The notes under the pieces were generated by a model. It was not told the origin of the DNA, did no database searches, and saw only the letters and a list, made by a program, of their open reading frames with translations. This document shows positions 10,460-24,099 of a stretch of 33,471 bases of DNA, piece after piece. The position numbers and the translations under genes were made by a program. The DNA is from Nitrospirota bacterium (GTDB lineage Bacteria > Nitrospirota > Thermodesulfovibrionia > JACRGW01), in the NCBI GenBank assembly GCA_016212195.1, contig JACRGW010000158.1:1-33471 (forward strand), written 5' to 3'. Position 1 is the stretch's first letter; each line of letters opens with the position of its first letter.

Positions 10460-12487
10460 ATGCCAGATACAGGTGGTGAGAGATCAAAGAAGGAGTTTTT
10501 AGGTGAGGCCGAAGATCTCCTGACAGAAATCAACAATAATGTTGAAGAATTAGAAGAAACCTACCAGGAGAGATTTAATCCTGATACCCTGAATGCCATC
10601 TTTAGGGGAGTCCATTCCCTAAAAGGGCTATCAGGGATATTTAGCCTCAATAGAATGTCCGAGTTGAGTCACCGCCTTGAATCCCTTCTTGATACTCTCC
10701 GTCTCGGTAAGATTGAACTTAACCGTGATGTCCTCAATCTTATTATAGAAGGATTAGGTATATTGAGGAAACTTCTTGGAGATGCAGAAAAGGGAGAAGA
10801 GGTTACTGATATTGAAGGCATACTTTCTGATATTGATCTCTTTATTAGAGATAGGACAAAAAGTTCTGAGATTTCTATCATAGATACCCTTGATATCGAC
10901 CAGGCAATCCTTAAAGTCCTCACCGAATATGAAGAGTACCGCCTGAAGACCAATATTAAAGAAAGCAGAAATATCTTTCTTCTGAAGGCAAGTTTTGGCC
11001 TGCAGAGTTTCGATACAGATCTGGAGGGTCTAAATAACAAAGTGAAGACCGTAGGAGAGGTTATTACAACCTTGCCTTCATCAGGGGTATCTCCTCAGGA
11101 AGGAATCCAGTTTACCCTTCTGATAGGTAGCAGTGAAGACCTTGAAGGGATAAGCGAGAGAGTAGGGAAGGGAAAGGTTGTTATTGAAGAGGTTGGCAGG
11201 AAGAAAGGGGTAGGAAATGTTGAAGGCATACAAACTTCGGAGAGATCAGACGAACCAAGGGTCAGACCTCCTTCTACCTCAGATACATCATTAAAAAGTA
11301 TGAGCAAGACAGTAAGGGTAGATATTGAGAGGTTAGATAGGCTTATGAATACAGTAGGTGAACTTGTTCTGACTAGGGCCGCCGTTGGCAGAATAAGTAA
11401 GGAACTAAAGCAGCTTCAGGGATATAGCATTCTTTCTATGGACCTTCAAAGGGTGTCACAGTCATTAGGTAAGAGACTCACCGCATTACAGAATGAGATT
11501 ATGGAGGTGAGGATGATACCTGTAGGGCAGATCTTCTCAAGACTTTCTCAGGTTGTGAGACGTTACAGCAAGGATATAGAAAAAGAGGTAGATATGGAAT
11601 TTTATGGCGAAGAGACAGAACTGGATAAATTCTTGGCAGAGGAGACAGCCGATCCGCTGATGCATATTATAAGAAATGCTATCGATCATGGTATCGAAAC
11701 CCCTGATATCAGGAGAAGATCAGGCAAAAAAGAGAGTGGTACTGTACGGCTCAGCGCCTTTCCAAGAGGTAATCATGTTGCCATAACTATCGAAGACGAC
11801 GGAGCAGGCATTGACACGGACACAGTCATTAAAAAGGCGATTGAGAGAGGTCTCGTCGAGAGGGATGCCGTATTGAATAAAAGAGAGATACTGGAACTTC
11901 TCTTTCTCCCTGGTTTTACTACTAAAAGAGACGTGACAGAAATGTCAGGCCGTGGTGTGGGATTGGATGTGGTGAAGACAAGGGTCTCTGATCTTAGTGG
12001 TTTCATTGATATTGATACAGAGTTTGGAAAGGGGACTACCTTCACAATTACAATTCCTATTACCTTAGCGATCATTAAAGCACTTATTGTAAAGGTTTCG
12101 AAGGAGATATTTGCGATCCCTATTAACTCGGTATCTGAAAACCTGATGATTCCTTTCCAGAAGGTGCAGAGGATAGAGAAGAAGGAGGTCTTGGAACTGA
12201 GGGGAGAGATGCTACCTCTTATGAGACTGGATAAGACATTCAATCTGCCTCCTGGTGAGGATACAGAGAATATTAATATTGTAGTAGTAGGTTTTGGAGA
12301 GAGAAGGATCGGCTTAGTGGTGAGTGATTTTATAGGACAGCAGGAGATTGTAATAAAATCTCTTGGAGAAAGCCTCAAGGGTGTCCCTGGGATTTCAGGG
12401 GCAACAGAAATGGGAAAGTATAAGGTTATACTCGTTTTAGATGTAGAGGCCCTTATTGACGAGGCAATGACGAGGAGAAGGGCATAA
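10460..12487 (+). CDS. cheA: Chemotaxis histidine kinase CheA
   Basis: Hpt domain with the phospho-His context FRGVHSLKGLSG, dimerisation segment VRVDIERLDRLMNTVGELV, HATPase boxes (HIIRNAIDHGIE, DDGAGID, GRGVGLDVV) and a C-terminal CheW-like domain. Confidence 0.93.
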   Translation: MPDTGGERSKKEFLGEAEDLLTEINNNVEELEETYQERFNPDTLNAIFRGVHSLKGLSGIFSLNRMSELSHRLESLLDTLRLGKIELNRDVLNLIIEGLGILRKLLGDAEKGEEVTDIEGILSDIDLFIRDRTKSSEISIIDTLDIDQAILKVLTEYEEYRLKTNIKESRNIFLLKASFGLQSFDTDLEGLNNKVKTVGEVITTLPSSGVSPQEGIQFTLLIGSSEDLEGISERVGKGKVVIEEVGRKKGVGNVEGIQTSERSDEPRVRPPSTSDTSLKSMSKTVRVDIERLDRLMNTVGELVLTRAAVGRISKELKQLQGYSILSMDLQRVSQSLGKRLTALQNEIMEVRMIPVGQIFSRLSQVVRRYSKDIEKEVDMEFYGEETELDKFLAEETADPLMHIIRNAIDHGIETPDIRRRSGKKESGTVRLSAFPRGNHVAITIEDDGAGIDTDTVIKKAIERGLVERDAVLNKREILELLFLPGFTTKRDVTEMSGRGVGLDVVKTRVSDLSGFIDIDTEFGKGTTFTITIPITLAIIKALIVKVSKEIFAIPINSVSENLMIPFQKVQRIEKKEVLELRGEMLPLMRLDKTFNLPPGEDTENINIVVVGFGERRIGLVVSDFIGQQEIVIKSLGESLKGVPGISGATEMGKYKVILVLDVEALIDEAMTRRRA

Positions 12488-12535
12488 AAATCAAAGTGCA
12501 AAATTATCATTTAGCATTGAAGATTTTAAATTTAA

Positions 12536-12562
12536 AATGCTAATTGCTAAATTTACAATGAA
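12536..12562 (+). repeat. Short dispersed intergenic repeat, copy B (AATGCTAATTGCTAAATTTACAATGAA), with an inverted partial copy at 12507..12518
   Basis: See copy A. TCATTTAGCATT at 12507..12518 is the reverse complement of AATGCTAAATGA. It can form an 8-bp stem with 12536..12543 across a 17-nt AT-rich loop. Confidence 0.45.
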
Positions 12563-12581
12563 AGATTAAACGGACTTTACG

Positions 12582-13394
12582 ATGTACGAAGAATATTATG
12601 GATTTAAGATGAAGCCATTCAGTAAGACCCCTGATCCGAGATTTCTCTATATGAGTAAAGGTCATGCCGAGGCACTTGCCAGGTTACAGTATGGAGTTGA
12701 GGAGAAAGAGTTTATTCTGCTCACCGGAGAGATTGGCTCGGGGAAAACCACACTTTCGAGGGCACTCATAGACTCCCTTAATAGTTCCCATAAGATTGTC
12801 TTGATTATTAATCCCCGTCTGAGCCCGGTTAACCTGTTAAAGACCCTTGCAAACGGATTTGGCATAGATCGCCCTTCGAGATCCAGAAATAATATCCTGG
12901 AAGTTATCTATAACTCTCTCTATAATCTTTATACCGAGGGGAATGTACCTGTTATTATCATCGATGAGGCACAGCTGATACCAAGTAAAGATACCTTTGA
13001 AGAGATCAGGCTGCTCACAAATTTCCAGCTCGATGATACAAACCTTCTCTCAATAGTCCTTATAGGACAACCGGATTTAAGGAAAAGACTTGGGGGGAAG
13101 TCGTATCAATCTCTGAGACAGAGGATAGGTCTGCTCTATCACCTTGAAGGACTTACTGAAGAAGAGGTTTGTGCCTATATAAATCATAGAATATCTGTAG
13201 CAGGAAGGGAGGAAAGGACCTTCACGGAAAGTGCCATCAGATCTGTCCACAGGCATTCAGGAGGGATCCCGAGGAAGATTAATAACCTCTGTACATATGC
13301 CCTCCTCGAAGGTTTCGGAAGAGGTGTGAGCCTGATAGAGGAAGATATAATAGAGGATGTCGCAGGGGAGTTAGGCTTTGCTCTAAAAGGATGA
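12582..13394 (+). CDS. ExeA/MshM-type AAA+ (AAA_22-like) ATPase consisting of the ATPase module only
   Basis: The N-terminal YGFKMKPFSKTPDPRFLY is typical of ExeA. Walker A is GEIGSGKT and Walker B is VIIIDEAQ, followed by LIGQP. At 270 aa there is no room for the C-terminal peptidoglycan-binding part of ExeA. Confidence 0.85.
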   Translation: MYEEYYGFKMKPFSKTPDPRFLYMSKGHAEALARLQYGVEEKEFILLTGEIGSGKTTLSRALIDSLNSSHKIVLIINPRLSPVNLLKTLANGFGIDRPSRSRNNILEVIYNSLYNLYTEGNVPVIIIDEAQLIPSKDTFEEIRLLTNFQLDDTNLLSIVLIGQPDLRKRLGGKSYQSLRQRIGLLYHLEGLTEEEVCAYINHRISVAGREERTFTESAIRSVHRHSGGIPRKINNLCTYALLEGFGRGVSLIEEDIIEDVAGELGFALKG

Positions 13395-13406
13395 GTATTT
13401 CTTTTT

Positions 13407-13435
13407 TGTCACCATGAACGTAGCGAAGGGCTCAG
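13407..13435 (+). repeat. Possible solo relative of the 24647 repeat family (TGTCACCATGAAC...AGGGCTCAG)
   Basis: It shares the 13-mer pattern TGTCAYSMTGAAC with 24647 (+, TGTCACCCTGAAC) and 24706 (-, TGTCATGCTGAAC). It is not itself a hairpin. Confidence 0.3.
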
Positions 13436-13459
13436 AGTAACAAAAAGTGAGGAATAGAA

Positions 13460-14143
13460 ATGGATTTAGTGAATATTAGGAAAAAGGCACAGCAGGAGAA
13501 GGCGAAAGAAGAAAAACCCCAGGACTCAACCCAGAAACAGGTTCAGGGAAAGACTGAGGATGCTGAGGCAAATCTTCAAGTCGAAGGGGAGATAACAGAA
13601 GAGGCAATATCAATTGAAAAGGATGAAACAGGGATGCCTTTACAATCAGGCGGGGTTGAGTTATCCCAAGAGATAAGGGAAGAGATTCAGGAGATTCCTT
13701 CTTTACCATACAGCGAAGAAGAGTCAGTAGTTGAGGTAATATCCTTTAGGCTTGGGGATGAAATTTACGGTGTGAAGATAGATTATGTAAGGGAAATACT
13801 CAAACCTCTCGAGATAACATCTGTTCCGAGAACACCTTCTTATCTAAAGGGTGTAACATCCTTAAGAGGGGAGATTATCCCTGTCTTTGATCTCAAGGAA
13901 AGATTGGGTCTGGAAGGAATTCAGCAGGATAAAAAGAGAAGAATTCTTATACTCTCAATAAGGAACGAGACTATAGGTGCTGTGATTGATGAGGTTCTTG
14001 GAGTTATTAAGCTCCTTAAGGAGTCTATAGATTCTACTCCTACTATTATCACAGGTATAGAGGCAGATTTTCTCGAAGGGATAAGCCTGGTAGATGATAG
14101 ATTCATTGGCCTCCTTAATGTTGAAGAGGTCATGAAAATATAG
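13460..14143 (+). CDS. cheW: CheW-like coupling protein with an ~85-aa acidic, low-complexity N-terminal extension
   Basis: The CheW domain starts around VISFRLGDEIYGVKIDYVREI...LRGEIIPVFDLKERLG. The preceding part is rich in K, E and Q. Confidence 0.85.
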   Translation: MDLVNIRKKAQQEKAKEEKPQDSTQKQVQGKTEDAEANLQVEGEITEEAISIEKDETGMPLQSGGVELSQEIREEIQEIPSLPYSEEESVVEVISFRLGDEIYGVKIDYVREILKPLEITSVPRTPSYLKGVTSLRGEIIPVFDLKERLGLEGIQQDKKRRILILSIRNETIGAVIDEVLGVIKLLKESIDSTPTIITGIEADFLEGISLVDDRFIGLLNVEEVMKI

Positions 14144-14167
14144 TCGAAAAACTATTTGAGGAAGAAT

Positions 14168-16642
14168 ATGAGTCTACCTAATATCTTTAAGGGAAGATTA
14201 AGAATAAAAATCCTCAGTCTGGCGGTCGCAATCCTGGGCCTCGAGATGGTATTCCTTGTTATCCTGACATTAGAATTAAAGAGGGATATAATCCAGCTTT
14301 TCCTTTTGGCATCAACTGTAGCGATCTTCTTTACGATAATCCTTCAGGTTCTTTTGAGAAGGATGGTCATTGAGCCCATTGAAAGACTGGTGGATTCTAT
14401 GAAGAAGGTCTCTGAGGGAAATCTCACCCCGATTTCTGGGATTACATCAAGGGATGAAATAGGTGATCTAACTAATACAATAAATGAATCCATATTCCAT
14501 ATGGGGAGCATGATTGGTGGAATAAATGATGTATCAAAAGAAGTAGAGAGGGTGGGTTCTCAGGTATCCGATGATTCTAAGAGGTTAATCGAATTTGCCC
14601 AGATACAGCTTGGTTCTATTGAAACAATTACTGGATCAATTGAAGAATTAAATGCAGCAATCAAGGGGATCGCCTCCTCTATAGATGAGTTGTCTATCTC
14701 GGCTGTACAGACCTCATCTTCTATACTCGAAATGATGTCATCAGTGGATGAAGTGGCAAATTCAACTGTTACACTATCCACCTCTGTAGAGGGAACAGCG
14801 TCTTCTATAGATGAGATGAACGCCTCAGTAAAGGAAGTGGCTCAAAGTGCAGAGGTCCTTTCTAAGGCGTCAGAAGAGACATCTTCTGCTGTTGAGGAGA
14901 TCAACGCTACTATAAAAGAGGTAGAAATCGCTTATAGGGAGAGTGCGAGGCTCGCTGATAAGGTTAAGGAAGATGCCTCACAGCTCGGAATGGTCTCTAT
15001 AGAAAAGACAATAGAGGGAATGAAAGGGATAAAAGAGAAGGTGGAGAGGACCGCGGAATTGATAAACAGGCTCGGCAGCAGAAGCGAAGAGATAGGGAAG
15101 GTCATTAATGTTATAGATGAGGTTACTGACCAGACATCCCTCCTTGCCCTTAATGCTGCTATCCTGGCTGCCCAGGCAAAGGAACATGGCAAGGGTTTCT
15201 CAGTGGTAGCGGAGGAGATTAAGGATTTGGCTGAAAAGACAGCGGCTTCTACAAAAGAGATAGGAGACCTCATCGCCTCTGTTCAGGGAGAGGCTAAAGG
15301 TGCGGTAGAGGCGATGGGAGAGGGGCTCAGTAAGGTGGAAGAAGGGGTCAGGCTTAGCAAGGAGGCAGGAGATGCCTTAAAACAGATACTGGAAAGTGCG
15401 AAGATTTCTTCTGAGATGGCATCTTCGATAGAGAGGGCGACTATAGAACAGGTCAAGGGTATAAAACAGGTCGTTGGGGCAATGGACAGGATAAGGGATA
15501 TGATAGTTCATATTTCTAACGCTATTTCCGAACAGACAAAAGGGGTTGGACAGATAGTCCTTGCGGCTGAGAAGATGAGGGATATTACAGAGAAGGTTAG
15601 ATCTGCCACTTCTGAGCAATCTAAGGCAAGTAAGCAGATAACCCAGGCAGTTGAGATTGTTACTGAAAAGATTCAGGACATGTCACATTCTATACAGGAG
15701 CAGAAGATTGGAAGTAATTTGATAATGAATTCTATAGAGGGGGCAAGGGATATACCAAAGAGGAATGTAGATATCGCCTTCGAGATAAACCAGAGGATAC
15801 TTACCCTGATAAAGGCTACAGACCTTCTTAAGGCAGAAACGGGGAGATTTAAGATAAGCGAGGTTTATATCCGAGAAAAGGGTTTAAGGATGGGTGTTAT
15901 ACCCTTAGAGTCCCCGGCAGAGATGTTCAGGAAATTTACCCCCTTGACTGAATATCTATCGATAGCCCTTGGTATGAAGGTAAGTCTTAAACTTGCCCTC
16001 GATTTTGAAGGGACTATAGAAGATTTAGGCAAAGGTGTTACCCAGATCTGTTATATGACACCCACAACCTATATAGAGGCAAGCCAGAGATACGGGGTTA
16101 GGCCCATTGTTAAAGAAGTCCTCGATGGAAAACCTTTCACCAATTCTGTAATAGTAGCAAAGGAAGGGAGCAAAGTTAATACGGTTGAAGATATAAGGGG
16201 TAGGACCTTTGCCTTTGGCGATCCAAAATCGACAACAAGCCATATCATCCCAAGAAATATGCTCCTGGAGGTTGGAATAGATCTTAAAGACCTTAGGTCT
16301 TATAGATACCTGGGACATCATGATAATGTTGCCCAGGCTGTTCTAAAAGGGGAGTTTGATGTTGGCGGAATGCTCGAATCTATCGCCTATAAGTTCATCC
16401 CTCAGGGGCTGAAGATTATCAAGGTATCTACAGATATCCCGGGGTTTAATATATGTGTAGCTAAAGACATTGACCCAACAGTAAAGGAAAAACTTAAAAA
16501 GACCCTTCTCGACATAAACAATCAAAAGGAAGAGACAAAAAAAATCCTTAAAGCTATAAATCCGAGACAGACAGGATTTGTCGAGGCCCATGACGATGAC
16601 TACAGCGGGATAAAAAAGATGATGAGAACTATTAAATTATAA
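14168..16642 (+). CDS. Methyl-accepting chemotaxis protein: TM hairpin, HAMP, very long signalling domain, and a C-terminal PhnD-like (type 2 periplasmic-binding-protein fold) domain
   Basis: Two adjacent TM helices with almost no loop, then HAMP (PIERLVDSMKKVSEGNL...DEIGDLTNTIN). The conserved hairpin tip is LLALNAAILAAQAKEHGKGFSVVAEEIKDLAEKT. The C-terminal ~250 aa resemble PhnD (GVIPLESPAEMFRKFTPLTEYLS..., FAFGDPKSTTSHIIP, GHHDNVAQAVLKGEFDVGG). The track starts at TTG 14156. I prefer ATG 14168, which lies behind GAGGAAG. Confidence 0.9.
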   Translation: MSLPNIFKGRLRIKILSLAVAILGLEMVFLVILTLELKRDIIQLFLLASTVAIFFTIILQVLLRRMVIEPIERLVDSMKKVSEGNLTPISGITSRDEIGDLTNTINESIFHMGSMIGGINDVSKEVERVGSQVSDDSKRLIEFAQIQLGSIETITGSIEELNAAIKGIASSIDELSISAVQTSSSILEMMSSVDEVANSTVTLSTSVEGTASSIDEMNASVKEVAQSAEVLSKASEETSSAVEEINATIKEVEIAYRESARLADKVKEDASQLGMVSIEKTIEGMKGIKEKVERTAELINRLGSRSEEIGKVINVIDEVTDQTSLLALNAAILAAQAKEHGKGFSVVAEEIKDLAEKTAASTKEIGDLIASVQGEAKGAVEAMGEGLSKVEEGVRLSKEAGDALKQILESAKISSEMASSIERATIEQVKGIKQVVGAMDRIRDMIVHISNAISEQTKGVGQIVLAAEKMRDITEKVRSATSEQSKASKQITQAVEIVTEKIQDMSHSIQEQKIGSNLIMNSIEGARDIPKRNVDIAFEINQRILTLIKATDLLKAETGRFKISEVYIREKGLRMGVIPLESPAEMFRKFTPLTEYLSIALGMKVSLKLALDFEGTIEDLGKGVTQICYMTPTTYIEASQRYGVRPIVKEVLDGKPFTNSVIVAKEGSKVNTVEDIRGRTFAFGDPKSTTSHIIPRNMLLEVGIDLKDLRSYRYLGHHDNVAQAVLKGEFDVGGMLESIAYKFIPQGLKIIKVSTDIPGFNICVAKDIDPTVKEKLKKTLLDINNQKEETKKILKAINPRQTGFVEAHDDDYSGIKKMMRTIKL

Positions 16643-16664
16643 CAGGATTGAAAGGAGGAAGAAT

Positions 16665-16694
16665 ATGAATCTAAGAAATATGAATCTAAGAAAT
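16665..16694 (+). repeat. Perfect 15-bp tandem duplication that includes the MCP start codon
   Basis: ATGAATCTAAGAAAT occurs twice in a row, giving MNLRN-MNLRN. Confidence 0.8.
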
Positions 16695-18746
16695 AAAGCA
16701 ATTTTATTAATGGTCCTGATCCTCCTTTCGGTATTAAGTATAAATACAATAGTTCTCATGAAGGTAGTGACAGGTAGATACAAAAATGCCCTTCTTGTTA
16801 AAACAACACTTATAGGGAAAGGAATTAAAAGTGAGATAAGTAGGCCAGCGGAAGTAGGCGTCCCCCTCGGGAGTCTTTTAGGGGTTAATGATATGTTGAG
16901 GAGGCTAATCGAAGAGAATAAGGATATTGGTTATTCTATGGTTGTTGATAGCACAGGTAAGATCCTCTTCCATAATGATCAAGTTATGATTAGTAAAACT
17001 CTTACAGAGATACCGGAGATGGAGGCTATAAAGACCGAGGAGTTTATAACTAAACCCGTGGGAGATTATTATGAAACAACCCTTCCACTATTTGGTCCTG
17101 AGAAAAAACTCGTTGGCTTTATAAAAGTGGCACTTAAGAAGAAAGAGTTATCAGCTCAGATCTCCTCCATGCTTTTGAAATCTATAACTGTTGCTCTCGT
17201 AGGATTTATCTTGGGCATTACCCTTGTAGCCTTCTTTGTTTCAAGATTCATAACAAGGCCTATAACAACCTTTGCCTCTACAGCCTTTGAGATAACAAGG
17301 GGAGACTTCACAAAGACAATAGAGATAAGATCTAATGATGAAGTTGGGGAACTAGGTGGGACGATAAACAGGATGGTAGAGAACCTCGGAAATATTTTCA
17401 AAAGGTTTAAGTCAGCTGCTATGAATGTATCCATGGCAGCCGAGCAGATAGCGATAAACTCTAAGAAAATGACTACAGGTTCAAGAACTCAGGTAGAGGC
17501 AGTTGAGAAGACATCCTCCTCTCTACAGGAGTTGAACTCAACTATCAGGGAGATTGCAAACTCTGTATCTACACTTTCTACATCTGCAGTAGAAACTTCA
17601 TCTTCTGTCCTCGAGATAAGTTCCTCAATAGAAGAGGTTGCAAATAGTACCTCCGGCCTTGCAGGCACTATCTCTGAAACAACGGCTTCCCTGGAACAGA
17701 TAGGGGCCTCTGTTAAAAAAGTTGCAAGGAGTGCGGAGGTCTTAGAGGAGGCAATATCCGAAACAGGAGGGGCCGCAGCGGAGATTGATGCTGCCATAAG
17801 GACTGTAGCGGATAATGCAAAGGAATCATCAATGCTTGCAGGTAAGGTTGTCTCCGATGCCTCGGAGTTTGGGATGGTCTCTGTTGTTAATGCAATAGAT
17901 GGGATGGATAAAATAAAAGGTTCTGTAAAGAAGGCCGGTGATTCAGTAAACCACCTGAAGGAGAGATCATTGGAGATAAATAAAATCGTTGCTGTTATTG
18001 ATGCAGTAACTTCCAGAACAAACCTCCTGGCATTAAACGCAGCAATCTTAGCTGCCCAGGCAGGGGAACACGGTAAAAGTTTTTCTGTTGTGGCAGAAGA
18101 GATCAGGGAACTTGCAGAGAAGACTTCTGCTTCTACAAAAGAGATAGCCGATCTGATAGTGACGATCCAGCAGGAGACACAGGATACTGTAGATATAATG
18201 AAGGAAGGTCTTATAAGGGTAGATGATGGTAATAAACTGGTTTACGCAGTAGGTGATGCCTTAAGGACGATCATCCATTCTTCACAGCAGTCCCAGGTTG
18301 CAGCAAAGGGCATAGAAGGGGCAGCTGTTGAACAGGCGAGGGGTGTGAAACAGGTGACTGAATCTGTTGAAAGAGTAAAAGATATGATAGTGAATATTGC
18401 GAATGCAATCCGTGAACTCAGGAACGGGACAGACCAGATTGTGAAGGCAATGGAGGTTGTAGATAGTATATCTAAACATGTGAAAAAGGCTATGGAAGAC
18501 CAGTCAAGTGGGAGCAGGCAGATAGGCTCAGTTGCTGAAAATACGGTGGAGAAGACACGGCTAATATCAAAGGCAACAGAAGAGCAGAGAATCGGGACTG
18601 AATCCATCCTTCGGTCTATCGACGAGGTTAAGACCGTGGCTGTGGAAGGAATGGATATAGCCTCTGAGATAGATCTTGCTATGGAGGGCATCAGGAAGGA
18701 TGCTGAAGACCTGAAAAGAGTGGTTGAGGTATTTAAGGTAAAATAA
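16665..18746 (+). CDS. Methyl-accepting chemotaxis protein: TM, ~135-aa Cache-like periplasmic domain, TM, HAMP, very long signalling domain
   Basis: The periplasmic segment carries the Cache-like GYSMVVDSTGKILFHND. HAMP reads RPITTFASTAFEITRGDF...DEVGELGGTINRM. The tip is LLALNAAILAAQAGEHGKSFSVVAEEIRELAEKT. It is a paralog of the preceding MCP. Confidence 0.9.
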   Translation: MNLRNMNLRNKAILLMVLILLSVLSINTIVLMKVVTGRYKNALLVKTTLIGKGIKSEISRPAEVGVPLGSLLGVNDMLRRLIEENKDIGYSMVVDSTGKILFHNDQVMISKTLTEIPEMEAIKTEEFITKPVGDYYETTLPLFGPEKKLVGFIKVALKKKELSAQISSMLLKSITVALVGFILGITLVAFFVSRFITRPITTFASTAFEITRGDFTKTIEIRSNDEVGELGGTINRMVENLGNIFKRFKSAAMNVSMAAEQIAINSKKMTTGSRTQVEAVEKTSSSLQELNSTIREIANSVSTLSTSAVETSSSVLEISSSIEEVANSTSGLAGTISETTASLEQIGASVKKVARSAEVLEEAISETGGAAAEIDAAIRTVADNAKESSMLAGKVVSDASEFGMVSVVNAIDGMDKIKGSVKKAGDSVNHLKERSLEINKIVAVIDAVTSRTNLLALNAAILAAQAGEHGKSFSVVAEEIRELAEKTSASTKEIADLIVTIQQETQDTVDIMKEGLIRVDDGNKLVYAVGDALRTIIHSSQQSQVAAKGIEGAAVEQARGVKQVTESVERVKDMIVNIANAIRELRNGTDQIVKAMEVVDSISKHVKKAMEDQSSGSRQIGSVAENTVEKTRLISKATEEQRIGTESILRSIDEVKTVAVEGMDIASEIDLAMEGIRKDAEDLKRVVEVFKVK

Positions 18747-18763
18747 CTCAAGGACTGATTTAT

Positions 18764-19237
18764 ATGGAAGATCAAGAAACCAGAGTAGCTATTTTTTCCG
18801 TAGGTGAAGAGGAATATGCGATAGATATAATGAGAGTGGTTGAGATTCTTAGACCACAAAAGGTAACAAGACTTCCTAAGAGTCCGGATTTTATAGAGGG
18901 GGTGTTAAACCTGAGAGGAAAGGTTATCCCTATAGTAGACCTCAGAAAAAGATTCGGTATTGAACCTACTGACAGACATGGGAATGAACGGATATTATTA
19001 ATCCGGGTAGGGGAAGAGATAGTTGGACTTCAGGTGGATGGAATAAGTGATGTACGCAGTCTCTCAAGGGAAGATATAGTGTCTCCCCCAACTATTGTTA
19101 AGGGAATAAAAACCGAATATCTCGAAGGTGTTGGAAAGGTAGGGGAGAAGTTAATAATAATACTGAATCTTGATAAGATCCTCTCTACAGAAGAGATGCT
19201 TGTTCTTGAATCAATTGAAGAGACTGAAAAGGCATAA
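18764..19237 (+). CDS. cheW: CheW coupling protein
   Basis: A 157-aa protein consisting of a single CheW domain (FSVGEEEYAIDIMRVVEILR...LRGKVIPIVDLRKRFG). Confidence 0.9.
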   Translation: MEDQETRVAIFSVGEEEYAIDIMRVVEILRPQKVTRLPKSPDFIEGVLNLRGKVIPIVDLRKRFGIEPTDRHGNERILLIRVGEEIVGLQVDGISDVRSLSREDIVSPPTIVKGIKTEYLEGVGKVGEKLIIILNLDKILSTEEMLVLESIEETEKA

Positions 19238-19251
19238 GGTCTAACATCCTC

Positions 19252-21264
19252 ATGGAGAGAATATTGGATAGTTTTGCGGATTTGGTGAAGGGTATTAATG
19301 ACGAAAATGCAGAGATAAGAAGATTATCTGCCTTGGGGCTTGCTGATTATGGTGAGGAATCTATCCCTCACCTCCTTAAGACCTTAGGAGATGCTGATTG
19401 GCGTGTCAGGAAGACCTCTGTTGAGTCATTCCTGAAGATTGGCGGAAGAAGGGTTATAGAAAGCCTCATCTCATCCCTGAATATCCAGGATAATGCAGGG
19501 GCAAGAAACTCCGCAATAGAGGCACTCACAAGGATAGGGAAGGAGGCAGTCCCATTTCTTATAAACAGCTTTGAGGACGCCCATCAAGATGTCAGAAAAT
19601 TCATCGTCGATATCCTCGGAGAAGTAGGAGACAAAAGAGCTACCCCTCTCTTTATTGCGGCGTTAACAGATAGGGATGATAATGTTAGATTCTCTGCAAT
19701 AGAACATCTCGGTAAGATAAGAGATGAGAAGGCAATAAATCCCCTTTTGAAGATATTTAAAAAGAAGGAACTCTGGCTTAGCTATCCTGCTGCTATTTCA
19801 CTCGGTAATATTGGAGATTCAAGGGTTCTCGAGCCACTTCTTGATGCCCTTAAAGAGAAACCACTGAGAGAGGCAGCCTTAAAAGGCCTTGGTGCCCTGG
19901 GGGATAAAAGGGCACTGGCTCAGGTTATAAAATTCCTGAAAGACCCTTCGAGGTCAATCAGGGAAATTTCACTCCAGGTTATTATAGATATTTCGAAGAA
20001 GAATCCTAATGATAAGGGGACCATCACAATTATAAAGGAAAATATTGATAGAGAGATATCAGACTATCTGCTCCAGTCCCTCAAAAGAGAGAAGGCTCAG
20101 ATAAAATTAGCATCCGTAAGGCTTTTGGGATGGGTGGGGGCTGAAAGGGCTGTTGAGCCACTTGTAAACCTTCTCCAGGAAGACGAACTTCAAGAAAAGG
20201 TAATGGAGGCACTCTTAATTCTTGGTAGGGGTGGTGCTATCCATGCCCTTATCCCCTTCTTAGATAACCCTGATAATATTATCAGGAGATGTATATCCTA
20301 TCTCTTAGGAGAGATAGGTGATAGTACTGCTGTTGAGGCACTGATAAAATCCCTATCTGATGAAGACGGGCATGTAAGGGGAAACTCAATGATAGCCTTA
20401 GGGAAGATAAAGGATAGAAGGGCTATAATCCCTCTCATGGATTTCCTTAATGATGAATATAATAATGTCCAGGAATCTGCCGTAACTGCCCTGGTCGAGA
20501 TAGGGACTGAGGTGGAACAACTCCTTCCTATGCTTTCTTCAAAGGAATCAGATTTTAGAAAGAATATAGCCCTGCTTTTAGGCAGGCTAAAAGCGAAGAA
20601 AGCGGTCTCATCCCTTGGCTTTGTTATCAAAGATGAGTCACCTGAAGTAAGGGAGGCGGTTGTAAAGGCACTTGGTATGATAGGGGGAGAGGAGGCAGGA
20701 AGATTTTTAATTTCAGCCTTGACCGACGAGGAGCCACGGGTAAAAATGGCATCTGCCATTGCCATCGGCGAAATTAGTTATAAAAAGGGGATTGATTCCC
20801 TTATCATACTTCTTAAAGATGAAAATAGCAGGGTAAGAGCAGCAGTTGCAAGAGGTATTGGAAAACTTAAGAATCCAGCCGCCGTCCTTCCCCTTATAGA
20901 ACTCCTTGATGATAAAGACCCTATGGTCAGAATCTCTGTAATTGAGTCCTTAGGAGAGATAGGAGATATGTCAGCACTTCCGTACCTATTACGACTCCTT
21001 AAAGAAAAAGACCCTGAACTAAAAAAGATCACCATCAGAACACTTTCTAAACTGGGCTTTAATAAGGTTCAGGCCCTTGAAATCTTAAAGGAGCTTCTGC
21101 CTCTCCTTTCGGATAGAGACTGGGGTGTAAGGAAGGCAGTATTAGAAGTATTAGGGAGATTTCCTGAGAAGGATGTTAAAGGATATATCATTAAGGTAGC
21201 CGAGACAGATGAAGACGAAGTGGTCAGAAAGACAGCGGATGATATACTTAAAGGTAAGAAATGA
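19252..21264 (+). CDS. HEAT-repeat protein (PBS-lyase HEAT-like repeats, roughly 20 units)
   Basis: The whole 670 aa shows ~31-aa periodic units of the form D.D..VR..A..ALG.IGD..A...L...L.D. Confidence 0.85.
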   Translation: MERILDSFADLVKGINDENAEIRRLSALGLADYGEESIPHLLKTLGDADWRVRKTSVESFLKIGGRRVIESLISSLNIQDNAGARNSAIEALTRIGKEAVPFLINSFEDAHQDVRKFIVDILGEVGDKRATPLFIAALTDRDDNVRFSAIEHLGKIRDEKAINPLLKIFKKKELWLSYPAAISLGNIGDSRVLEPLLDALKEKPLREAALKGLGALGDKRALAQVIKFLKDPSRSIREISLQVIIDISKKNPNDKGTITIIKENIDREISDYLLQSLKREKAQIKLASVRLLGWVGAERAVEPLVNLLQEDELQEKVMEALLILGRGGAIHALIPFLDNPDNIIRRCISYLLGEIGDSTAVEALIKSLSDEDGHVRGNSMIALGKIKDRRAIIPLMDFLNDEYNNVQESAVTALVEIGTEVEQLLPMLSSKESDFRKNIALLLGRLKAKKAVSSLGFVIKDESPEVREAVVKALGMIGGEEAGRFLISALTDEEPRVKMASAIAIGEISYKKGIDSLIILLKDENSRVRAAVARGIGKLKNPAAVLPLIELLDDKDPMVRISVIESLGEIGDMSALPYLLRLLKEKDPELKKITIRTLSKLGFNKVQALEILKELLPLLSDRDWGVRKAVLEVLGRFPEKDVKGYIIKVAETDEDEVVRKTADDILKGKK

Positions 21265-22145
21265 TAGGAATGAATGGATCGTTCAAGATGTCTGATGACA
21301 CATTCAGACTCATCCGAGATTTTATAAGGAATTATTGTGGGGTATATTTCGACGATGGATCTAAATTCCTCCTGGAAAAGAGGCTATCGAGAAGGGTAGA
21401 GAATTATCTCTTAAATAACTTTGAGGATTATTACCATTTTTTAATGTATGATAAAAGGAGAGATGAAGAACTGGCATCGGTGATAGATGTCTTAACAGTA
21501 AATGAAACCTACTTCTTCAGGGAATTCTCTCAGCTTAAGGCATTAAGCGATGAGATCATCCCTGAAATCGGTGAGAGGAGGAAGGATAAGAAAAGACTCA
21601 GGATATGGTCAGCAGGTTGTTCTACAGGCGAAGAGCCTTATACAATCGCGATATTGATACTTGAGAAAAATCTCATGCCTGAATGGGAGATAGAGATACT
21701 GGGAAGTGATATAAACCAGAGGGTTATTCATGCAGCAAGGAGAGGGATTTACAGAAAGAACGCCTTCAGGAGTATTGATGATTATTATATCAGAAAGTAT
21801 TTCACAGATGAAGGAGAAGGGAATTACAGGATTGTTGATCCTGTAAGGAGTTTGGTGAACTTCAGCCTTCTGAATCTCGTAGACCCCTTTAAAGTAAGAT
21901 TTGTTGGTAAGATGGATGTGATATTCTGCAGGAATGTAATTATCTATTTTGACAGGGACGCAAAGAAAAAGGTAATCAATAATTTTTATGATAGACTCAC
22001 AGAAGAAGGTTATCTCCTTTTAGGTCACTCCGAGTCTTTAATGAATATTTCTACTGACTTCATGCTAAAGCATCTCAAGAATGACCTTGTTTACCAGAAA
22101 CCCACAAGATCGGCATTAACAGGAGAGATGGTATGGAAAAGATAA
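21261..22145 (+). CDS. cheR: Chemotaxis protein methyltransferase CheR
   Basis: The N-terminal helical domain contains TVNETYFFRE. The SAM-binding fold contains RIWSAGCSTGEEPYTIAI and IFCRNVIIYFD. The start overlaps the upstream stop as ATGA. Confidence 0.9.
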   Translation: MIGMNGSFKMSDDTFRLIRDFIRNYCGVYFDDGSKFLLEKRLSRRVENYLLNNFEDYYHFLMYDKRRDEELASVIDVLTVNETYFFREFSQLKALSDEIIPEIGERRKDKKRLRIWSAGCSTGEEPYTIAILILEKNLMPEWEIEILGSDINQRVIHAARRGIYRKNAFRSIDDYYIRKYFTDEGEGNYRIVDPVRSLVNFSLLNLVDPFKVRFVGKMDVIFCRNVIIYFDRDAKKKVINNFYDRLTEEGYLLLGHSESLMNISTDFMLKHLKNDLVYQKPTRSALTGEMVWKR

Positions 22146-23200
22146 GGGTTCTTGTTGTAGATGACTCTCCATATAGTCGTCAGACAATAACAAGGATGCT
22201 TCAGCAGACATCTTTCATCGATGCAATCGGTACCGCTTCTGACGGTAAGGAGGCGATGTCAAAGGTGATAAAATTCAGGCCTGATGTAGTGACACTCGAT
22301 TTAGCGATGCCGGTTATGGATGGTTTTGCCTTCCTTAGATGGGTAATGAAAGAATTTCCTCTACCTGTCATAGTAGTAAGTTTCTACGCGGATGACAGGA
22401 GTTTTCTTAAGGCCTTTGAGCTTGGTGCAGTAGATTTTATTTTAAAGCCGACAGCCAGGGCATCACCTGAACTTCAGAAGATCAAGGACGAACTGATAGA
22501 AAAGATAAGTGCAGTCGCACATCTTGAAATGTCTAAAATGAAGGCTAATCTTGATCTCCTTACGAGTGATGATAGTAAGTATAGAGAGATTGAAGATGTG
22601 TTTCCTGAGCCAAAGGGAGTTGAGCTTATTGCGATCGGCGCATCAACAGGTGGACCTCCTGCGATTCAGGCCATCCTTTTGAGGCTTCCGAAAAACCTTC
22701 CTGCTGGGGTTGTTATATCCCAGCATATGCCTGAAGGATTCACAAAACATTTTGCTGAAAGGCTTGATACCATATCTCCCCTCCATGTAAAAGAGGCAGA
22801 GGATGAAGATACTGTTGAAAGGGGGAAGATTCTTATAGCACCTGGCGGTTATCATATGGTCCTGGAAAAGAAAGGGGAAAATGTTAAGACAATACTAAGA
22901 AAGAAAAGTGATGCTGATAAGTATGTCCCTTCGGTAAATCTGATGATGAAGTCTTCCGCAGCAGTTTATGGAAGAAAGGTACTTGGTGTTATTCTTACAG
23001 GAATGGGAAACGATGGGAAGGATGGTATGAAGGCGATAAAAGAGAAGAAGGGTCAGACCATTGTAGAGTCTGAGGAGACCTCTGTTGTATTCGGGATGCC
23101 ACAGGAGGTTATAACTGCAGGGGCTGCTGATAAGGTGCTCCCCTTAAAGAAGATCCCCGAGGAGATAATTAAGAGATGTATGATGGATGAAAAACCGTAA
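22133..23200 (+). CDS. cheB: Chemotaxis response regulator protein-glutamate methylesterase CheB
   Basis: The REC domain contains VLVVDDS and TLDLAMPVMDG. The esterase domain contains IGASTGGP, SQHMPEGFT and GMGNDG. The gene overlaps cheR by 13 nt. Confidence 0.92.
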   Translation: MEKIRVLVVDDSPYSRQTITRMLQQTSFIDAIGTASDGKEAMSKVIKFRPDVVTLDLAMPVMDGFAFLRWVMKEFPLPVIVVSFYADDRSFLKAFELGAVDFILKPTARASPELQKIKDELIEKISAVAHLEMSKMKANLDLLTSDDSKYREIEDVFPEPKGVELIAIGASTGGPPAIQAILLRLPKNLPAGVVISQHMPEGFTKHFAERLDTISPLHVKEAEDEDTVERGKILIAPGGYHMVLEKKGENVKTILRKKSDADKYVPSVNLMMKSSAAVYGRKVLGVILTGMGNDGKDGMKAIKEKKGQTIVESEETSVVFGMPQEVITAGAADKVLPLKKIPEEIIKRCMMDEKP

Positions 23201-23243
23201 ACAGTTAACCGTAAACTGTCAACCGTTTTAAGGGAGGTATAAC

Positions 23244-24068
23244 TTGGGACCCAGAAAAGGAGAAGGCAAAATTCAGAAAAAGTCTGAGGAGTTCCTTCAG
23301 ATATTCAGAAAAGGTGAGGAATTTACACAGGAACTTCTTAAAGAGAATGAGAGGTTAAGGTTTAAATTGGTTGAGCTTGAGGAAGAACTCAAGGAGATGG
23401 GTAAGAACAGGGTAAAATTCCTTGAGGAGCGTAGTCGTATCCTTGAGAAAGAGAAGAAAGAGATTCAAGAGAGGTATAGACAGGTGGAGGCAGAGAATAA
23501 AGACTTTGTTGCTAAATATCTGGATGTAGAAGAGGAGAATAATAATCTTGCTAACCTGTATGTGGCAAGCTACCAGCTCCACTCCACACTCGATTTTAAT
23601 GAGGTATTGAGAACTGTTATCGAGATAGTATCAAATCTCATCGGGGCCGAAAGATTTGCTATTATGATTGTGGATGAAATGACAGAAGAGCTAAAAGTGA
23701 TCGCCTCTGAGGGACTTAATAAGGAAGATATCCCTAAAGTAAAATCTGGAGAAGGGATTATAGGAGAGGTAGTAATAACAGGAGAAAGTTACTTTGAAGA
23801 ATTTGTTCCAGGACGCACCTCAAAGGACCTCTCTAAACCAGTAGTCTGCATACCCCTTAAGATCAAAGAAAAAGTAATAGGGGTAATAGCAATCTATTCA
23901 CTCCTTATACAGAAAAAGGGTTTTATAAATGTTGACTATGAACTCTTCAATCTTTTAGTCGGTCATACAGCAACGGCAATATTTTCTTCGAAGCTCTATA
24001 CACAATCTGAAGGAAAACTGACAACAATTCAGACTTTCATTGACATTCTAAACGAGAAACCTCTATGA
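23244..24068 (+). CDS. Protein with an N-terminal ~100-aa coiled coil and a C-terminal GAF-like domain
   Basis: The first ~100 aa are heptad-rich and E/K/L-rich. The remainder (LDFNEVLRTVIEIVSNLIGAERFAIMIVDE...VIGVIAIYSL) follows the GAF pattern. The start is TTG with GGGAGG 6 nt upstream. Confidence 0.7.
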   Translation: MGPRKGEGKIQKKSEEFLQIFRKGEEFTQELLKENERLRFKLVELEEELKEMGKNRVKFLEERSRILEKEKKEIQERYRQVEAENKDFVAKYLDVEEENNNLANLYVASYQLHSTLDFNEVLRTVIEIVSNLIGAERFAIMIVDEMTEELKVIASEGLNKEDIPKVKSGEGIIGEVVITGESYFEEFVPGRTSKDLSKPVVCIPLKIKEKVIGVIAIYSLLIQKKGFINVDYELFNLLVGHTATAIFSSKLYTQSEGKLTTIQTFIDILNEKPL

Positions 24069-24099
24069 AAAGGCACCATATATTGAAGGGGGATTAGAG

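What the first reader, a model, noticed from the sequence alone, without database searches (positions are those of the whole stretch)
15884..16642. A PhnD-like binding-protein domain fused to the cytoplasmic C-terminus of an MCP
Seen in the sequence:
- The receptor has two TM helices joined by almost no loop, so it has no periplasmic sensor.
- After the signalling coiled coil ends (about residue 568 by my count from the track start), a ~250-aa domain follows that resembles phosphonate/phosphite-binding PhnD proteins (GVIPLESPAEMFRKFTPLTEYL, FAFGDPKSTTSHIIP, GHHDNVAQAVLKGEFDVGG).

Established knowledge: PhnD-fold domains are normally periplasmic, either as ABC transporter components or as N-terminal sensor domains. 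The MCP C-terminus normally carries at most a CheR/CheB tethering peptide.

Inference: a cytoplasmic binding-protein fold acts as the sensor (for a phosphonate, phosphite or other anionic metabolite) or as a docking module. This is an unusual receptor architecture.
Basis: partly seen in the sequence, partly recalled or inferred. Interest (0 to 1): 0.6.

Follow-up and report, generated by a model that had tools for sequence, protein, structure and literature searches.

The report
Chemoreceptor with internal PtxB-like binding domain
This is a real chemotaxis-type receptor of an uncultured Nitrospirota bacterium whose tail, inside the cell, carries a normally periplasmic oxyanion-binding domain; the design is common in that phylum and already listed in domain catalogues, but nobody has tested what it does.

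Summary
ORF 14156-16642 (probable true start ATG 14168) encodes a receptor with a TM hairpin, HAMP, a roughly 64-heptad MCP bundle, a 13-15 residue linker and a full-length Pfam Phosphonate-bd domain (E 2.4e-63). Its closest solved relatives are the phosphite-binding PtxB proteins, by sequence (E 3e-31) and by predicted fold (TM 0.85). There is no hydrophobic segment after the HAMP domain, so the domain should be cytoplasmic.

It is not a one-off. About 105 of 401 sampled Nitrospirota genomes carry the same junction. It usually sits in one conserved cluster: cheA, AAA22, cheW, MCP::PBP, MCP, cheW, HEAT, cheR, cheB, GAF, cheY.

Most relatives also have a periplasmic haem-c (CxxCH) or Cache sensor. 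The window's protein has lost that sensor, which leaves the tail domain as its only recognisable input.

The lobe-2 anion motif (S-T-T...H-D) is nearly invariant. PtxB's Tyr/Asp latch is replaced by Phe/Leu, so the ligand is probably a small oxyanion but not necessarily phosphite.

The architecture is listed in two Pfam-based surveys (2013, 2020) without functional study. This scan has also met it before on other DNA. Verdict: a new member of a catalogued but uncharacterised receptor type. The sensor role is inferred, not shown.

The parts
14156..16642 (+). MCP::Phosphonate-bd fusion gene. The longest ORF is 828 aa from TTG 14156; the probable real start is ATG 14168, giving 824 aa.
   Evidence: ORF list; Pfam domains; SD-like GAGGAAG before ATG 14168; 824-aa orthologues P0001 and L001.
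14204..14353 (+). Transmembrane hairpin: TM1 at about residues 17-39, a 5-residue loop (ELKRD), and TM2 at about residues 45-66. The roughly 131-aa periplasmic haem-c sensor of close relatives is missing here.
   Evidence: Hydropathy scan; N-terminal alignment with P0002-P0005, P0006 and P0010; PF21563 in P0002.
14351..14488 (+). HAMP domain (residues 66-111).
   Evidence: Pfam PF00672, E 3.9e-10.
14510..15844 (+). Long antiparallel signalling and adaptation bundle (residues about 119-563). The tip is E343-HGK. The arms are about 225 and 219 aa, roughly 32 heptads each (64H-like). The Pfam MCPsignal core is at 281-448.
   Evidence: Pfam; arm lengths; helix ends at about residue 563 in the AF2 model.
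15845..15889 (+). Short linker (residues 564-578) between the last bundle helix and strand 1 of the binding-protein domain. The model gives it low confidence, so it is probably flexible.
   Evidence: AF2 pLDDT below 50 at fragment residues 38-45, equal to protein residues 566-573.
15890..16603 (+). Cytoplasmic Phosphonate-bd (PtxB/PhnD-family, type-II periplasmic-binding-protein fold) domain, residues 579-816.
   Evidence: Pfam E 2.4e-63, full length; PDB sequence hits; AF2 plus Foldseek TM 0.85 to PtxB; dN/dS 0.11 against L001.
16229..16237 (+). S692-T693-T694, equivalent to the S130-T131-S132 anion-binding motif of Te_PtxB.
   Evidence: Alignment to 5jvb with residue roles from PMC5700983; S692 is invariant in 78 of 78 family members.
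16319..16324 (+). H722-D723, equivalent to H160-D161 of Te_PtxB (the His of the STS-H motif).
   Evidence: H722 is conserved in 77 of 78 members.
16445..16447 (+). F764, at the position of the capping Tyr208 of Te_PtxB. Its latch partner D22 is L584 here (nt 15905-15907).
   Evidence: F764 in 78 of 78 and L/I/V584 in 78 of 78 members.
10460..14143 (+). Upstream part of the conserved cluster: cheA (10460-12487), AAA_22/ExeA-like ATPase (12582-13394), long cheW (13460-14143).
   Evidence: Pfam; synteny in 12 or more Nitrospirota loci.
16665..24474 (+). Downstream part of the conserved cluster: sCache-MCP (16665-18746), cheW (18764-19237), HEAT-repeat protein (19252-21264), cheR (21261-22145), cheB (22133-23200), coiled-coil-GAF (23244-24068), cheY (24100-24474).
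   Evidence: Pfam; synteny.

Best explanation
The gene encodes a membrane-anchored chemoreceptor with a 64-heptad-type bundle. Its C-terminal helix returns to the membrane-proximal end of the bundle, next to HAMP, and continues through a flexible linker of about 13-15 residues into a cytoplasmic Venus-flytrap domain of the PtxB/PhnD family.

The most likely function of that domain is to bind a small cytoplasmic oxyanion in the cleft between its two lobes. Candidates are phosphorus- or sulfur-based species such as phosphite, phosphonate, phosphate or pyrophosphate-type compounds, or sulfite/thiosulfate-type compounds.

Ligand-driven closure, or ligand-dependent pairing or docking of the two domains of the receptor dimer beside HAMP, would then bias the packing of the adaptation helices and so the activity of the cluster's CheA. 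[quoted passage not shown]

In most family members this internal input is combined with an external haem-c or Cache sensor. The window's orthologue group has deleted the external sensor, so the internal domain is its only recognisable input.

The receptor works in a phylum-wide conserved Che cluster with AAA22, HEAT and GAF accessory proteins, which probably controls something other than flagella.

Shown here: domain identity, fold, order of parts, absence of later TM segments, conservation, and distribution. Inferred: cytoplasmic location (from topology rules), ligand binding, ligand class, coupling mechanism, and pathway output.
For: 1. Identity and fold:
- Pfam PF12974 E 2.4e-63, full length.
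- TIGR01098 over its cut-off.
- PtxB E 3e-31.
- AF2 pLDDT 88.5 and Foldseek TM 0.85 to liganded (closed) PtxB, against about 0.70 to apo-open PtxB.

2. Location: two TM segments only, a K/R-rich N-terminus and nothing hydrophobic after residue 110. Both bundle arms are about 220 aa, so the C-terminus ends level with HAMP.

3. Binding site kept under selection:
- S692 78/78, H722 77/78, D723 (D/E), D689, Y639, E741 78/78 and F764 78/78 across family members at 42% identity or more.
- The same core occurs in the separate short-MCP clade and in most of 41 genomic loci.
- dN/dS of the domain is 0.11 against orthologue L001, the same as the MCP bundle at 0.10.

4. The fusion is ancient and independent of partners:
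- About 105 of 401 sampled Nitrospirota genomes have a junction-spanning match in open frames of 830-1000 aa.
- The fused domains form well-supported clades (SH-aLRT 96) nested among signal-peptide SBPs.
- A second class of MCPs of about 620 aa carries the domain as orphan genes outside any Che cluster. This argues that the domain works autonomously rather than as a dock for cluster proteins.

5. The family is already used for signalling with varied oxyanions: AioX (arsenite) and ArrX (arsenate), TtrS/ThsS (tetrathionate/thiosulfate, PMC5408782), and XAC2383, solved with bound ATP (PDB 5ub7).

6. Precedent for C-terminal sensory input on MCPs: Tlp1 PilZ binds c-di-GMP and modulates signalling (PMC3604760); TlpD has a CZB domain (PMC13001251).

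7. Loss of the periplasmic sensor in the window's orthologue group, with the tail domain retained.
Against: - No ligand, binding or signalling experiment exists for any member.
- Three of the lobe-1/cap contacts that PtxB needs are changed: D22 to L584, Y55 to F617, Y100 to T662, and cap Y208 to F764. In Te_PtxB the Y208F mutation alone lowers phosphite affinity about 1000-fold (PMC5700983). Phosphite binding in the PtxB manner is therefore unlikely, and a non-binding domain cannot be excluded.
- A few lineages have lost H722 and F764 (Q and K in L042, L045, L046 and L047; other changes in L048 and L056).
- The linker is short but predicted flexible, so no rigid mechanical path into the bundle is evident.
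- Topology rests on hydropathy and the positive-inside rule only.
- The pocket mapping is by sequence alignment, not by inspection of coordinates.
Confidence: 0.55

Rival explanations
1. Ligand-independent docking or assembly module. The binding-protein fold has been recruited as a protein-protein interaction surface near the membrane. It might organise the receptor array, or recruit an accessory protein of the cluster (HEAT, GAF, AAA22) or CheR/CheB, in place of a tethering peptide.
For: - PtxB's closure latch (Tyr cap to Asp) is replaced by Phe/Leu, and two Tyr ligands are lost.
- Some lineages have lost the His and Phe as well.
- The long-type fusion is always found beside the same accessory genes.
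- The position at the C-terminus is where CheR/CheB tethers sit in other MCPs (PMC7390727).
Against: - The lobe-2 anion motif S-T-S/T...H-D is nearly invariant, which a pure docking surface would not require.
- The short-MCP clade keeps the domain and the motif as orphan genes without the accessory cluster.
- One complete genome keeps the fusion although AAA22 is absent from its cluster (L043).
Confidence: 0.2
2. Catalytic or sequestering role. The PBP fold acts as an enzyme or metabolite sink (as in THI5/NMT1-type PBP-fold enzymes) that happens to be tethered to the receptor.
For: Weak Pfam hits to NMT1-like families (NMT1_3 in the window protein; NMT1 in relatives). Foldseek lists Thi5 at low rank, TM about 0.55.
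Against: The NMT1-family hits are far weaker than Phosphonate-bd (E 1e-5 against 1e-63). The nearest relatives are all binding proteins. No catalytic motif was identified.
Confidence: 0.05
3. The domain is really extracytoplasmic. An unconventional topology or export route would place the C-terminus in the periplasm, where it would act as a normal SBP-type sensor.
For: All characterised members of the family are periplasmic. The same genome has signal-peptide versions.
Against: There is no hydrophobic segment between HAMP and the domain. The MCP bundle must be cytoplasmic to meet CheA and CheW. The domain follows the bundle after only 13-15 residues. There is no signal peptide or TM in any of about 100 homologues at the junction.
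Confidence: 0.03
4. Artefact: two genes joined by a sequencing or assembly error or a frameshift.
For: The window comes from a fragmented assembly (188 contigs, 84% complete).
Against: The same uninterrupted junction is found in about 105 independent genomes, including single-contig assemblies, and in 77 protein clusters. There is purifying selection across the junction.
Confidence: 0.01

Closest known systems
Catalogued architecture 'MCPsignal followed by Phosphonate-bd (PF12974)' (Russell et al. 2013 mBio, PMC3604760, Fig. 8; Ortega & Krell 2020, PMC7390727, section 6 and Supp. Fig. 2)
   Same: [quoted passage not shown]
   Different: Those papers only list the architecture from Pfam. They give no taxonomy, gene context, binding-site analysis or function.
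PtxB phosphite-binding proteins (PDB 5o2j, 5jvb, 5lv1); more distantly PhnD, HtxB, ArrX and AioX
   Same: Same family and fold (E 3e-31; TM 0.85). The S-T-S...H-D anion motif is retained.
   Different: - No signal peptide, and no ABC transporter partner in the cluster.
- The Tyr cap/Asp latch and two Tyr ligands are replaced (F764, L584, F617, T662).
- It fails the PhnD equivalog cut-off.
- It is fused to a receptor inside the cell.
Azospirillum brasilense Tlp1 (C-terminal PilZ) and Helicobacter pylori TlpD (C-terminal CZB); also DcrH of Desulfovibrio vulgaris (C-terminal hemerythrin; from my own knowledge and an earlier scan note, not checked here)
   Same: A cytoplasmic small-molecule-binding domain placed after the MCP signalling domain that adds an internal input.
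   Different: The folds and ligands are unrelated. The domain here is much larger (about 240 aa, bilobed) and its ligand is unknown.
Geobacter sulfurreducens haem-c sensor MCPs (Pfam PF21563 Mcp40H-20_sensor)
   Same: Most family members (for example P0002 and P0010) carry this periplasmic CxxCH sensor between TM1 and TM2.
   Different: The window's protein has lost it. As far as Pfam naming indicates, the Geobacter proteins are 40H-class and lack the C-terminal binding-protein domain.
TtrS/ThsS sensor kinases and AioX/AioS and XAC2383-type signalling SBPs
   Same: The Phosphonate-bd family is used for signalling rather than transport, with non-phosphorus oxyanions (tetrathionate, thiosulfate, arsenite) or, for XAC2383, a solved complex with ATP.
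   Different: In those systems the domain is periplasmic and N-terminal or free-standing. Here it is cytoplasmic and C-terminal to an MCP.
LysR-type transcription regulators (from my own knowledge)
   Same: A cytoplasmic type-II PBP fold used as an effector sensor, attached C-terminally to a helical linker.
   Different: A different PBP family and a DNA-binding output; there is no detectable sequence relationship.

Membership tests
Pfam Phosphonate-bd (PF12974) / NCBIfam TIGR01098 subfamily | Profile match above the curated cut-off over the whole domain | tested here: met
   PF12974: 214 bits against 27, profile positions 1-242 of 242. TIGR01098: 151 against 112.
Pfam Phosphonate-bd (PF12974) / NCBIfam TIGR01098 subfamily | Bilobed type-II periplasmic-binding-protein fold | tested here: met
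   AF2 pLDDT 88.5; Foldseek TM 0.83-0.88 (target-normalised) to PtxB and ArrX.
Pfam Phosphonate-bd (PF12974) / NCBIfam TIGR01098 subfamily | Lobe-2 S-T-S...H anion-binding motif | tested here: met
   S692-T693-T694 and H722 align to S130-T131-S132 and H160 of Te_PtxB. They are conserved in the family.
Pfam Phosphonate-bd (PF12974) / NCBIfam TIGR01098 subfamily | Signal peptide or lipoprotein anchor, with periplasmic location | tested here: not met
   The domain follows a cytoplasmic MCP bundle with no TM or signal sequence.
Pfam Phosphonate-bd (PF12974) / NCBIfam TIGR01098 subfamily | Adjacent ABC transporter permease and ATPase genes | tested here: not met
   The neighbouring genes scanned with Pfam are Che proteins, AAA22, HEAT, GAF, Dtd and TauE; none matched an ABC-transporter family above the curated cut-off.
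PtxB (phosphite-specific binding protein) | Capping Tyr (Y208) latched to Asp (D22), plus Tyr55 and Tyr100 ligands, giving the P-H...pi recognition | tested here: not met
   The equivalent residues are F764, L584, F617 and T662.
PhnD equivalog (TIGR03431) | Score above the equivalog cut-off | tested here: not met
   154.6 bits against a cut-off of 261.1.
Methyl-accepting chemotaxis protein | MCPsignal domain with a conserved hairpin tip, and HAMP after TM2 | tested here: met
   PF00015 E 3e-39, PF00672 E 4e-10; tip E343-HGK.
Methyl-accepting chemotaxis protein | Encoded with CheA, CheW, CheR and CheB | tested here: met
   synteny.
Methyl-accepting chemotaxis protein | Reversible methylation at Glu/Gln pairs | not tested
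   No site analysis or experiment was done.
64H length class of MCPs (Alexander & Zhulin classification, as cited in PMC8235581) | About 32 heptads in each arm of the bundle | tested here: inconclusive
   Arm lengths of 225 and 219 aa fit 32 heptads each, but no class-specific HMM was run.
Chemoreceptors with a C-terminal ligand-binding domain (Tlp1/TlpD-like design) | A recognisable small-molecule-binding domain C-terminal to the signalling domain | tested here: met
   Domain order; the design is listed in PMC3604760 Fig. 8 and PMC7390727 Supp. Fig. 2.
Chemoreceptors with a C-terminal ligand-binding domain (Tlp1/TlpD-like design) | Ligand binding to that domain changes receptor output | not testable with these tools
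   Needs biochemistry or genetics.

The most novel reading that the evidence does not exclude
In the window's orthologue group the periplasmic sensor has been deleted, so the receptor would be a purely internal-state sensor. A membrane-anchored MCP would read the cytoplasmic pool of a phosphorus or sulfur oxyanion (or a pyrophosphate-bearing metabolite) through a re-purposed 'periplasmic' binding protein. It would feed that metabolic signal into a non-flagellar, phylum-specific Che pathway (AAA22/HEAT/GAF) of Nitrospirota. That would make it a natural minimal system for learning how a Venus-flytrap domain at the C-terminal end of the adaptation helices controls CheA.
Probability: 0.3. Interest if true: 0.6.

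Novelty: new member of a known kind. Interest (0 to 1): 0.4.

Why it matters
Cytoplasmic use of a PhnD/PtxB-family domain has, as far as I could find, never been studied. NCBI and JGI often label these proteins as 'ABC transporter substrate-binding protein', which is misleading.

The family is a standard component of a conserved chemosensory cluster in a large part of the Nitrospirota. That phylum is important in sulfur, nitrogen and groundwater biogeochemistry and is mostly uncultured. Identifying the ligand would show which internal metabolite these organisms steer or regulate by.

It would also add a third mechanistic class (Venus flytrap) to the few known C-terminal inputs on chemoreceptors (PilZ, CZB, hemerythrin).

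The window's hairpin variant is a convenient natural construct, because the tail domain is its only recognisable sensor.

Tried and rejected
- **Literature.** Searches for 'Phosphonate-bd' with chemoreceptor terms found no functional study. The hyphenated spelling also missed the 2013 catalogue entry, which turned up only when reading PMC3604760 and searching 'Phosphonate_bd'. The 2020 catalogue entry came as a lead from an earlier scan note and was verified.
- **Cultured host.** I looked for a cultured organism with the fusion. Single-contig genomes G069, G256 and G095 carry it. G069 proved to be a complete MAG (OY760142.1) and G095 is also a MAG. Every titled record returned that carries the fusion is a MAG. 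My guess that G069 might be a cultured Nitrospira was wrong. G256's record title was not retrieved.
- **One or two fusion events.** The tree gives two well-supported MCP-fused clades (SH-aLRT 96 each), but the branch joining them is weak (83, drawn open). This stays unresolved.
- **Phosphite as ligand.** I considered it and rate it unlikely, because PtxB's Tyr cap/Asp latch and two Tyr ligands are absent.
- **Internal translation start at M579.** This would produce a free domain. I rejected it because the Met is not conserved in homologues (F or L in others) and no SD-like motif precedes it.
- **Flagellar output.** No FliM or FlhA was found in the 84%-complete genome, while five T2SSE-type ATPases were. 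This is suggestive only.
- **Second structure job.** I did not run a second AlphaFold job (full length or dimer). A monomer model of a 64H hairpin would not settle how the domain docks.
Full report
**What is there**

The window holds a single uninterrupted ORF, 14156-16642 on the + strand, 828 aa from a TTG. A GAGGAAG motif sits 3-9 nt upstream of the in-frame ATG at 14168. The closest orthologues are 824 aa and begin at the equivalent Met (P0001; L001). The real product is therefore probably 824 aa.

Pfam finds three domains:
- HAMP at residues 66-111.
- MCPsignal at residues 281-448.
- Phosphonate-bd (PF12974) at residues 579-816, end to end (profile 1-242 of 242, E 2.4e-63).

NCBIfam places the domain in the broad phosphate/phosphite/phosphonate SBP subfamily TIGR01098, above its cut-off, but not in the PhnD equivalog.

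Among solved structures the best sequence matches are the phosphite-binding PtxB proteins (5o2j, E 3e-31), then ArrX, HtxB, PhnD and AioX. An AlphaFold2 model of residues 529-828, built on a 21-sequence alignment of orthologues taken from genomic loci, has mean pLDDT 88.5. It shows a helix to about residue 563, a low-confidence stretch at 566-573, and then a bilobed alpha/beta domain. Foldseek matches the model to liganded PtxB at target-normalised TM 0.85. It matches the open apo form less well, at about 0.70.

**Topology**

A Kyte-Doolittle scan finds only two hydrophobic segments (about 17-39 and 45-66), joined by five residues (ELKRD). The N-terminal stub is K/R-rich. Nothing after residue 110 rises above 1.14.

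The two arms of the bundle are 225 and 219 aa around the E343-HGK tip, about 32 heptads each. This agrees with another first-stage note that both receptors of the cluster are of the long 64H type. The C-terminal helix therefore ends level with HAMP, just under the membrane. The binding-protein domain hangs there on a linker of 13-15 residues.

No reading of the sequence puts the domain outside the cell. This is still an inference from topology rules, not an experiment.

**It is a family, not an oddity**

A database search restricted to the tail domain returned 77 clusters (at 90% identity) in which MCPsignal and Phosphonate-bd occur together. They come mostly from Nitrospirota/Thermodesulfovibrionia MAGs, and sources often name them 'ABC transporter substrate-binding protein'.

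A 161-aa query spanning the junction (end of the bundle, linker, first third of the domain) was run against 401 Nitrospirota genomes. It gave full-length junction matches in open frames of about 830-1000 aa in roughly 105 genomes. The count is by hand from the match table. Several genomes have two or three copies.

An exhaustive HMMER search of 1.8 billion representatives found 6098 relatives of the domain. Most of the best-scoring hits, down to about E 1e-47, are MCP fusions or fragments of them; tandem Phosphonate-bd proteins and short free-standing proteins are interleaved.

A second class of MCPs of about 610-640 aa also ends in the domain. These are orphan genes in Nitrospirae MAGs, outside any Che cluster.

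In a maximum-likelihood tree the fused domains form two clades (32 and 10 rows, SH-aLRT 96 each) nested among signal-peptide-bearing SBPs. Whether there was one fusion event or two is unresolved.

Every titled record carrying the fusion that I could check is a MAG; I found no cultured host.

**Context**

In 12 loci recovered with the window protein, the long-type fusion sits in the same gene order wherever the contig reaches far enough. The same holds in three genomes fetched from the phylum search, two of them with single-contig or near-complete assemblies. The order is:

(cheY)-cheA-AAA22 ATPase-cheW-MCP::PBP-second MCP-cheW-HEAT-repeat protein-cheR-cheB-coiled-coil GAF-cheY

The only variations are extra MCPs and, in one genome, the absence of AAA22.

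The window's own genome is 1.39 Mb in 188 contigs and 84% complete. In it I found:
- no FliM or FlhA;
- five T2SSE-type ATPases;
- only three MCPs.

A non-flagellar output is therefore plausible but unproven.

**A derived variant**

The closest longer relatives (P0002-P0005, 76-77% identical in the tail domain) have about 131 residues between TM1 and TM2 that match Pfam PF21563. This is the Geobacter haem-c chemoreceptor sensor, and it contains CxxCH. Of 69 family members longer than 900 aa, 42 have CxxCH in the first 220 residues. Others have Cache domains instead (P0017).

The window protein, P0001 and L001 lack exactly this segment. The statement 'no periplasmic sensor' is therefore true here, but it is a secondary loss. 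The conserved hallmark of the family is the tail domain.

After the loss the tail domain stayed under purifying selection. Against L001, dN/dS is 0.11 for the domain, 0.10 for the bundle and 0.39 for TM+HAMP. The last figure rests on only 21 changes.

**The binding site**

The HMMER alignment to Te_PtxB uses the same numbering as Bisson et al. 2017 (PMC5700983). Mapping through it gives the following.

| Te_PtxB residue | Role in PtxB | Window residue | Conservation in family |
|---|---|---|---|
| S130-T131-S132 | lobe-2 anion motif | S692-T693-T694 | S692 in 78/78 |
| H160 | lobe-2 anion motif | H722 | 77/78 |
| D22 | latch for the capping Tyr | L584 | L/I/V in 78/78 |
| Y55 | ligand contact | F617 | F 62, Y 16 |
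| Y100 | ligand contact | T662 | T/H/Q |
| Y208 | capping Tyr (P-H...pi contact) | F764 | 78/78 |

In addition, D723 is D or E throughout, and D689, Y639 and E741 are also nearly invariant.

In Te_PtxB the Y208F mutation lowers phosphite affinity by about three orders of magnitude. The pocket has therefore kept its anion-binding half and has a fixed, more hydrophobic other half. This argues for a conserved ligand that is an oxyanion but is not bound in the PtxB-phosphite manner.

The short-MCP clade keeps both tyrosines and the Phe cap. A few deep lineages have replaced H722 and F764, for example with Q and K in L042, L045, L046 and L047. Specificity, or even binding, is therefore not uniform.

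The family's known ligand range is wide: phosphonates, phosphite, hypophosphite, arsenate, arsenite, tetrathionate and thiosulfate in the TtrS/ThsS sensors, and ATP, seen bound in the solved XAC2383 structure (PDB 5ub7).

The same genome also has signal-peptide tandem Phosphonate-bd proteins. One lies next to a Cache histidine kinase and a sigma-54 regulator, and one lies directly after SoxY-SoxZ and a SoxB-like gene. This is a hint that sulfur oxyanions are a relevant ligand class in this lineage.

**How it most likely works**

My best reading (about 0.55) is a cytoplasmic Venus-flytrap sensor. Its ligand-dependent closure, or its ligand-dependent pairing or docking beside HAMP, biases the membrane-proximal end of the adaptation helices and hence CheA. 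[quoted passage not shown]

In most family members it would be a second input alongside an external haem or Cache sensor. In the window's protein it is the only recognisable one.

The main rival (about 0.2) is a ligand-independent docking or assembly role. The evidence for it is the altered latch, the lineages that lost His and Phe, and the constant company of accessory proteins. The evidence against it is the invariant anion motif and the orphan short-MCP paralogues that keep the domain without the cluster.

Enzyme or sink, periplasmic export and assembly artefact are minor or refuted rivals.

**Comparison with what is known, and novelty**

Russell et al. 2013 show 'Phosphonate_bd' among the C-terminal domains of chemoreceptors in their Fig. 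8, and note several hundred receptors with non-PilZ C-terminal domains. [quoted passage not shown] Their Supp. Fig. 2 lists 'Phosphonate binding protein (Pf12974)'.

The architecture is therefore catalogued but functionally untouched. I found no paper on its ligand, structure, taxonomy or context.

Earlier notes of this scan show the same design has been met several times on other Nitrospirota DNA, including haem-sensor and soluble versions. Those are unchecked AI notes. I verified independently the haem sensor, the Nitrospirota distribution and the catalogue citation.

I file this as a new member of a known, uncharacterised kind.

- The phylum-level frequency of the fusion.
- The fixed gene cluster around it.
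- The pocket signature.
- The recognition that the window's receptor is a sensor-deleted derivative, which makes it a tidy experimental handle.

Interest is moderate (0.4). It is not surprising in principle to a chemotaxis specialist, but it is a clear, testable gap concerning a widespread receptor family in an environmentally important phylum.

Noticed in passing
window 14156-14170: The longest ORF starts at TTG 14156, but a GAGGAAG Shine-Dalgarno-like motif precedes ATG 14168 and the orthologues are 824 aa. The true start is probably 14168.
   Followed up: partly
window 10460-24474; loci L001-L012, L042-L044: The whole 11-gene cluster (cheA, AAA22, cheW, MCP::PBP, MCP, cheW, HEAT, cheR, cheB, GAF, cheY) is conserved in order across Nitrospirota, usually with an extra cheY upstream of cheA. 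One genome (L043) lacks AAA22. L044 has three MCPs in the cluster, one of them the fusion, and L042 has the plain MCP before the fusion.
   Followed up: partly
G000 whole genome (1.39 Mb, 84% complete): No FliM or FlhA was detected. Five T2SSE-type secretion/pilus ATPases and only three MCP genes were found (two in this cluster, one on contig C179). This suggests the Che pathway does not drive flagella.
   Followed up: partly
G000:C148:1776-5800 (L074): SoxY, SoxZ and a SoxB-like 5'-nucleotidase-domain protein are followed directly by a signal-peptide protein with two Phosphonate-bd domains, cut by the contig end. This is possibly a thiosulfate-related binding protein.
   Followed up: partly
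G000:C50:545-5182 (L073), minus strand: A 581-aa signal-peptide tandem Phosphonate-bd protein lies upstream of an sCache histidine kinase and a sigma-54 response regulator. This looks like a periplasmic SBP-dependent two-component system of the same domain family.
   Followed up: partly
loci L015-L021 (Nitrospirae MAGs): A second, shorter class of MCPs (about 610-640 aa) ends in a related Phosphonate-bd domain that keeps both PtxB-type tyrosines. These genes are orphans, not in Che clusters.
   Followed up: partly
L042:7367-10162 and relatives L045-L047: A Nitrospirota lineage in which the fused domain has Q for H722, K for F764 and S-T-L-T for the S-T-S-S motif. This means either a changed specificity or a non-binding domain.
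   Followed up: no
window 14168-14509 against L001: The TM hairpin plus HAMP segment shows a higher dN/dS (0.39, from 21 changes) than the rest of the protein (about 0.10). This is possibly relaxed constraint after loss of the periplasmic sensor, but the numbers are small.
   Followed up: no
protein records P0004, P0012, P0016, P0023 and others: Public annotation pipelines name many of these 950-aa chemoreceptors 'phosphate/phosphite/phosphonate ABC transporter substrate-binding protein', which is misleading.
   Followed up: no
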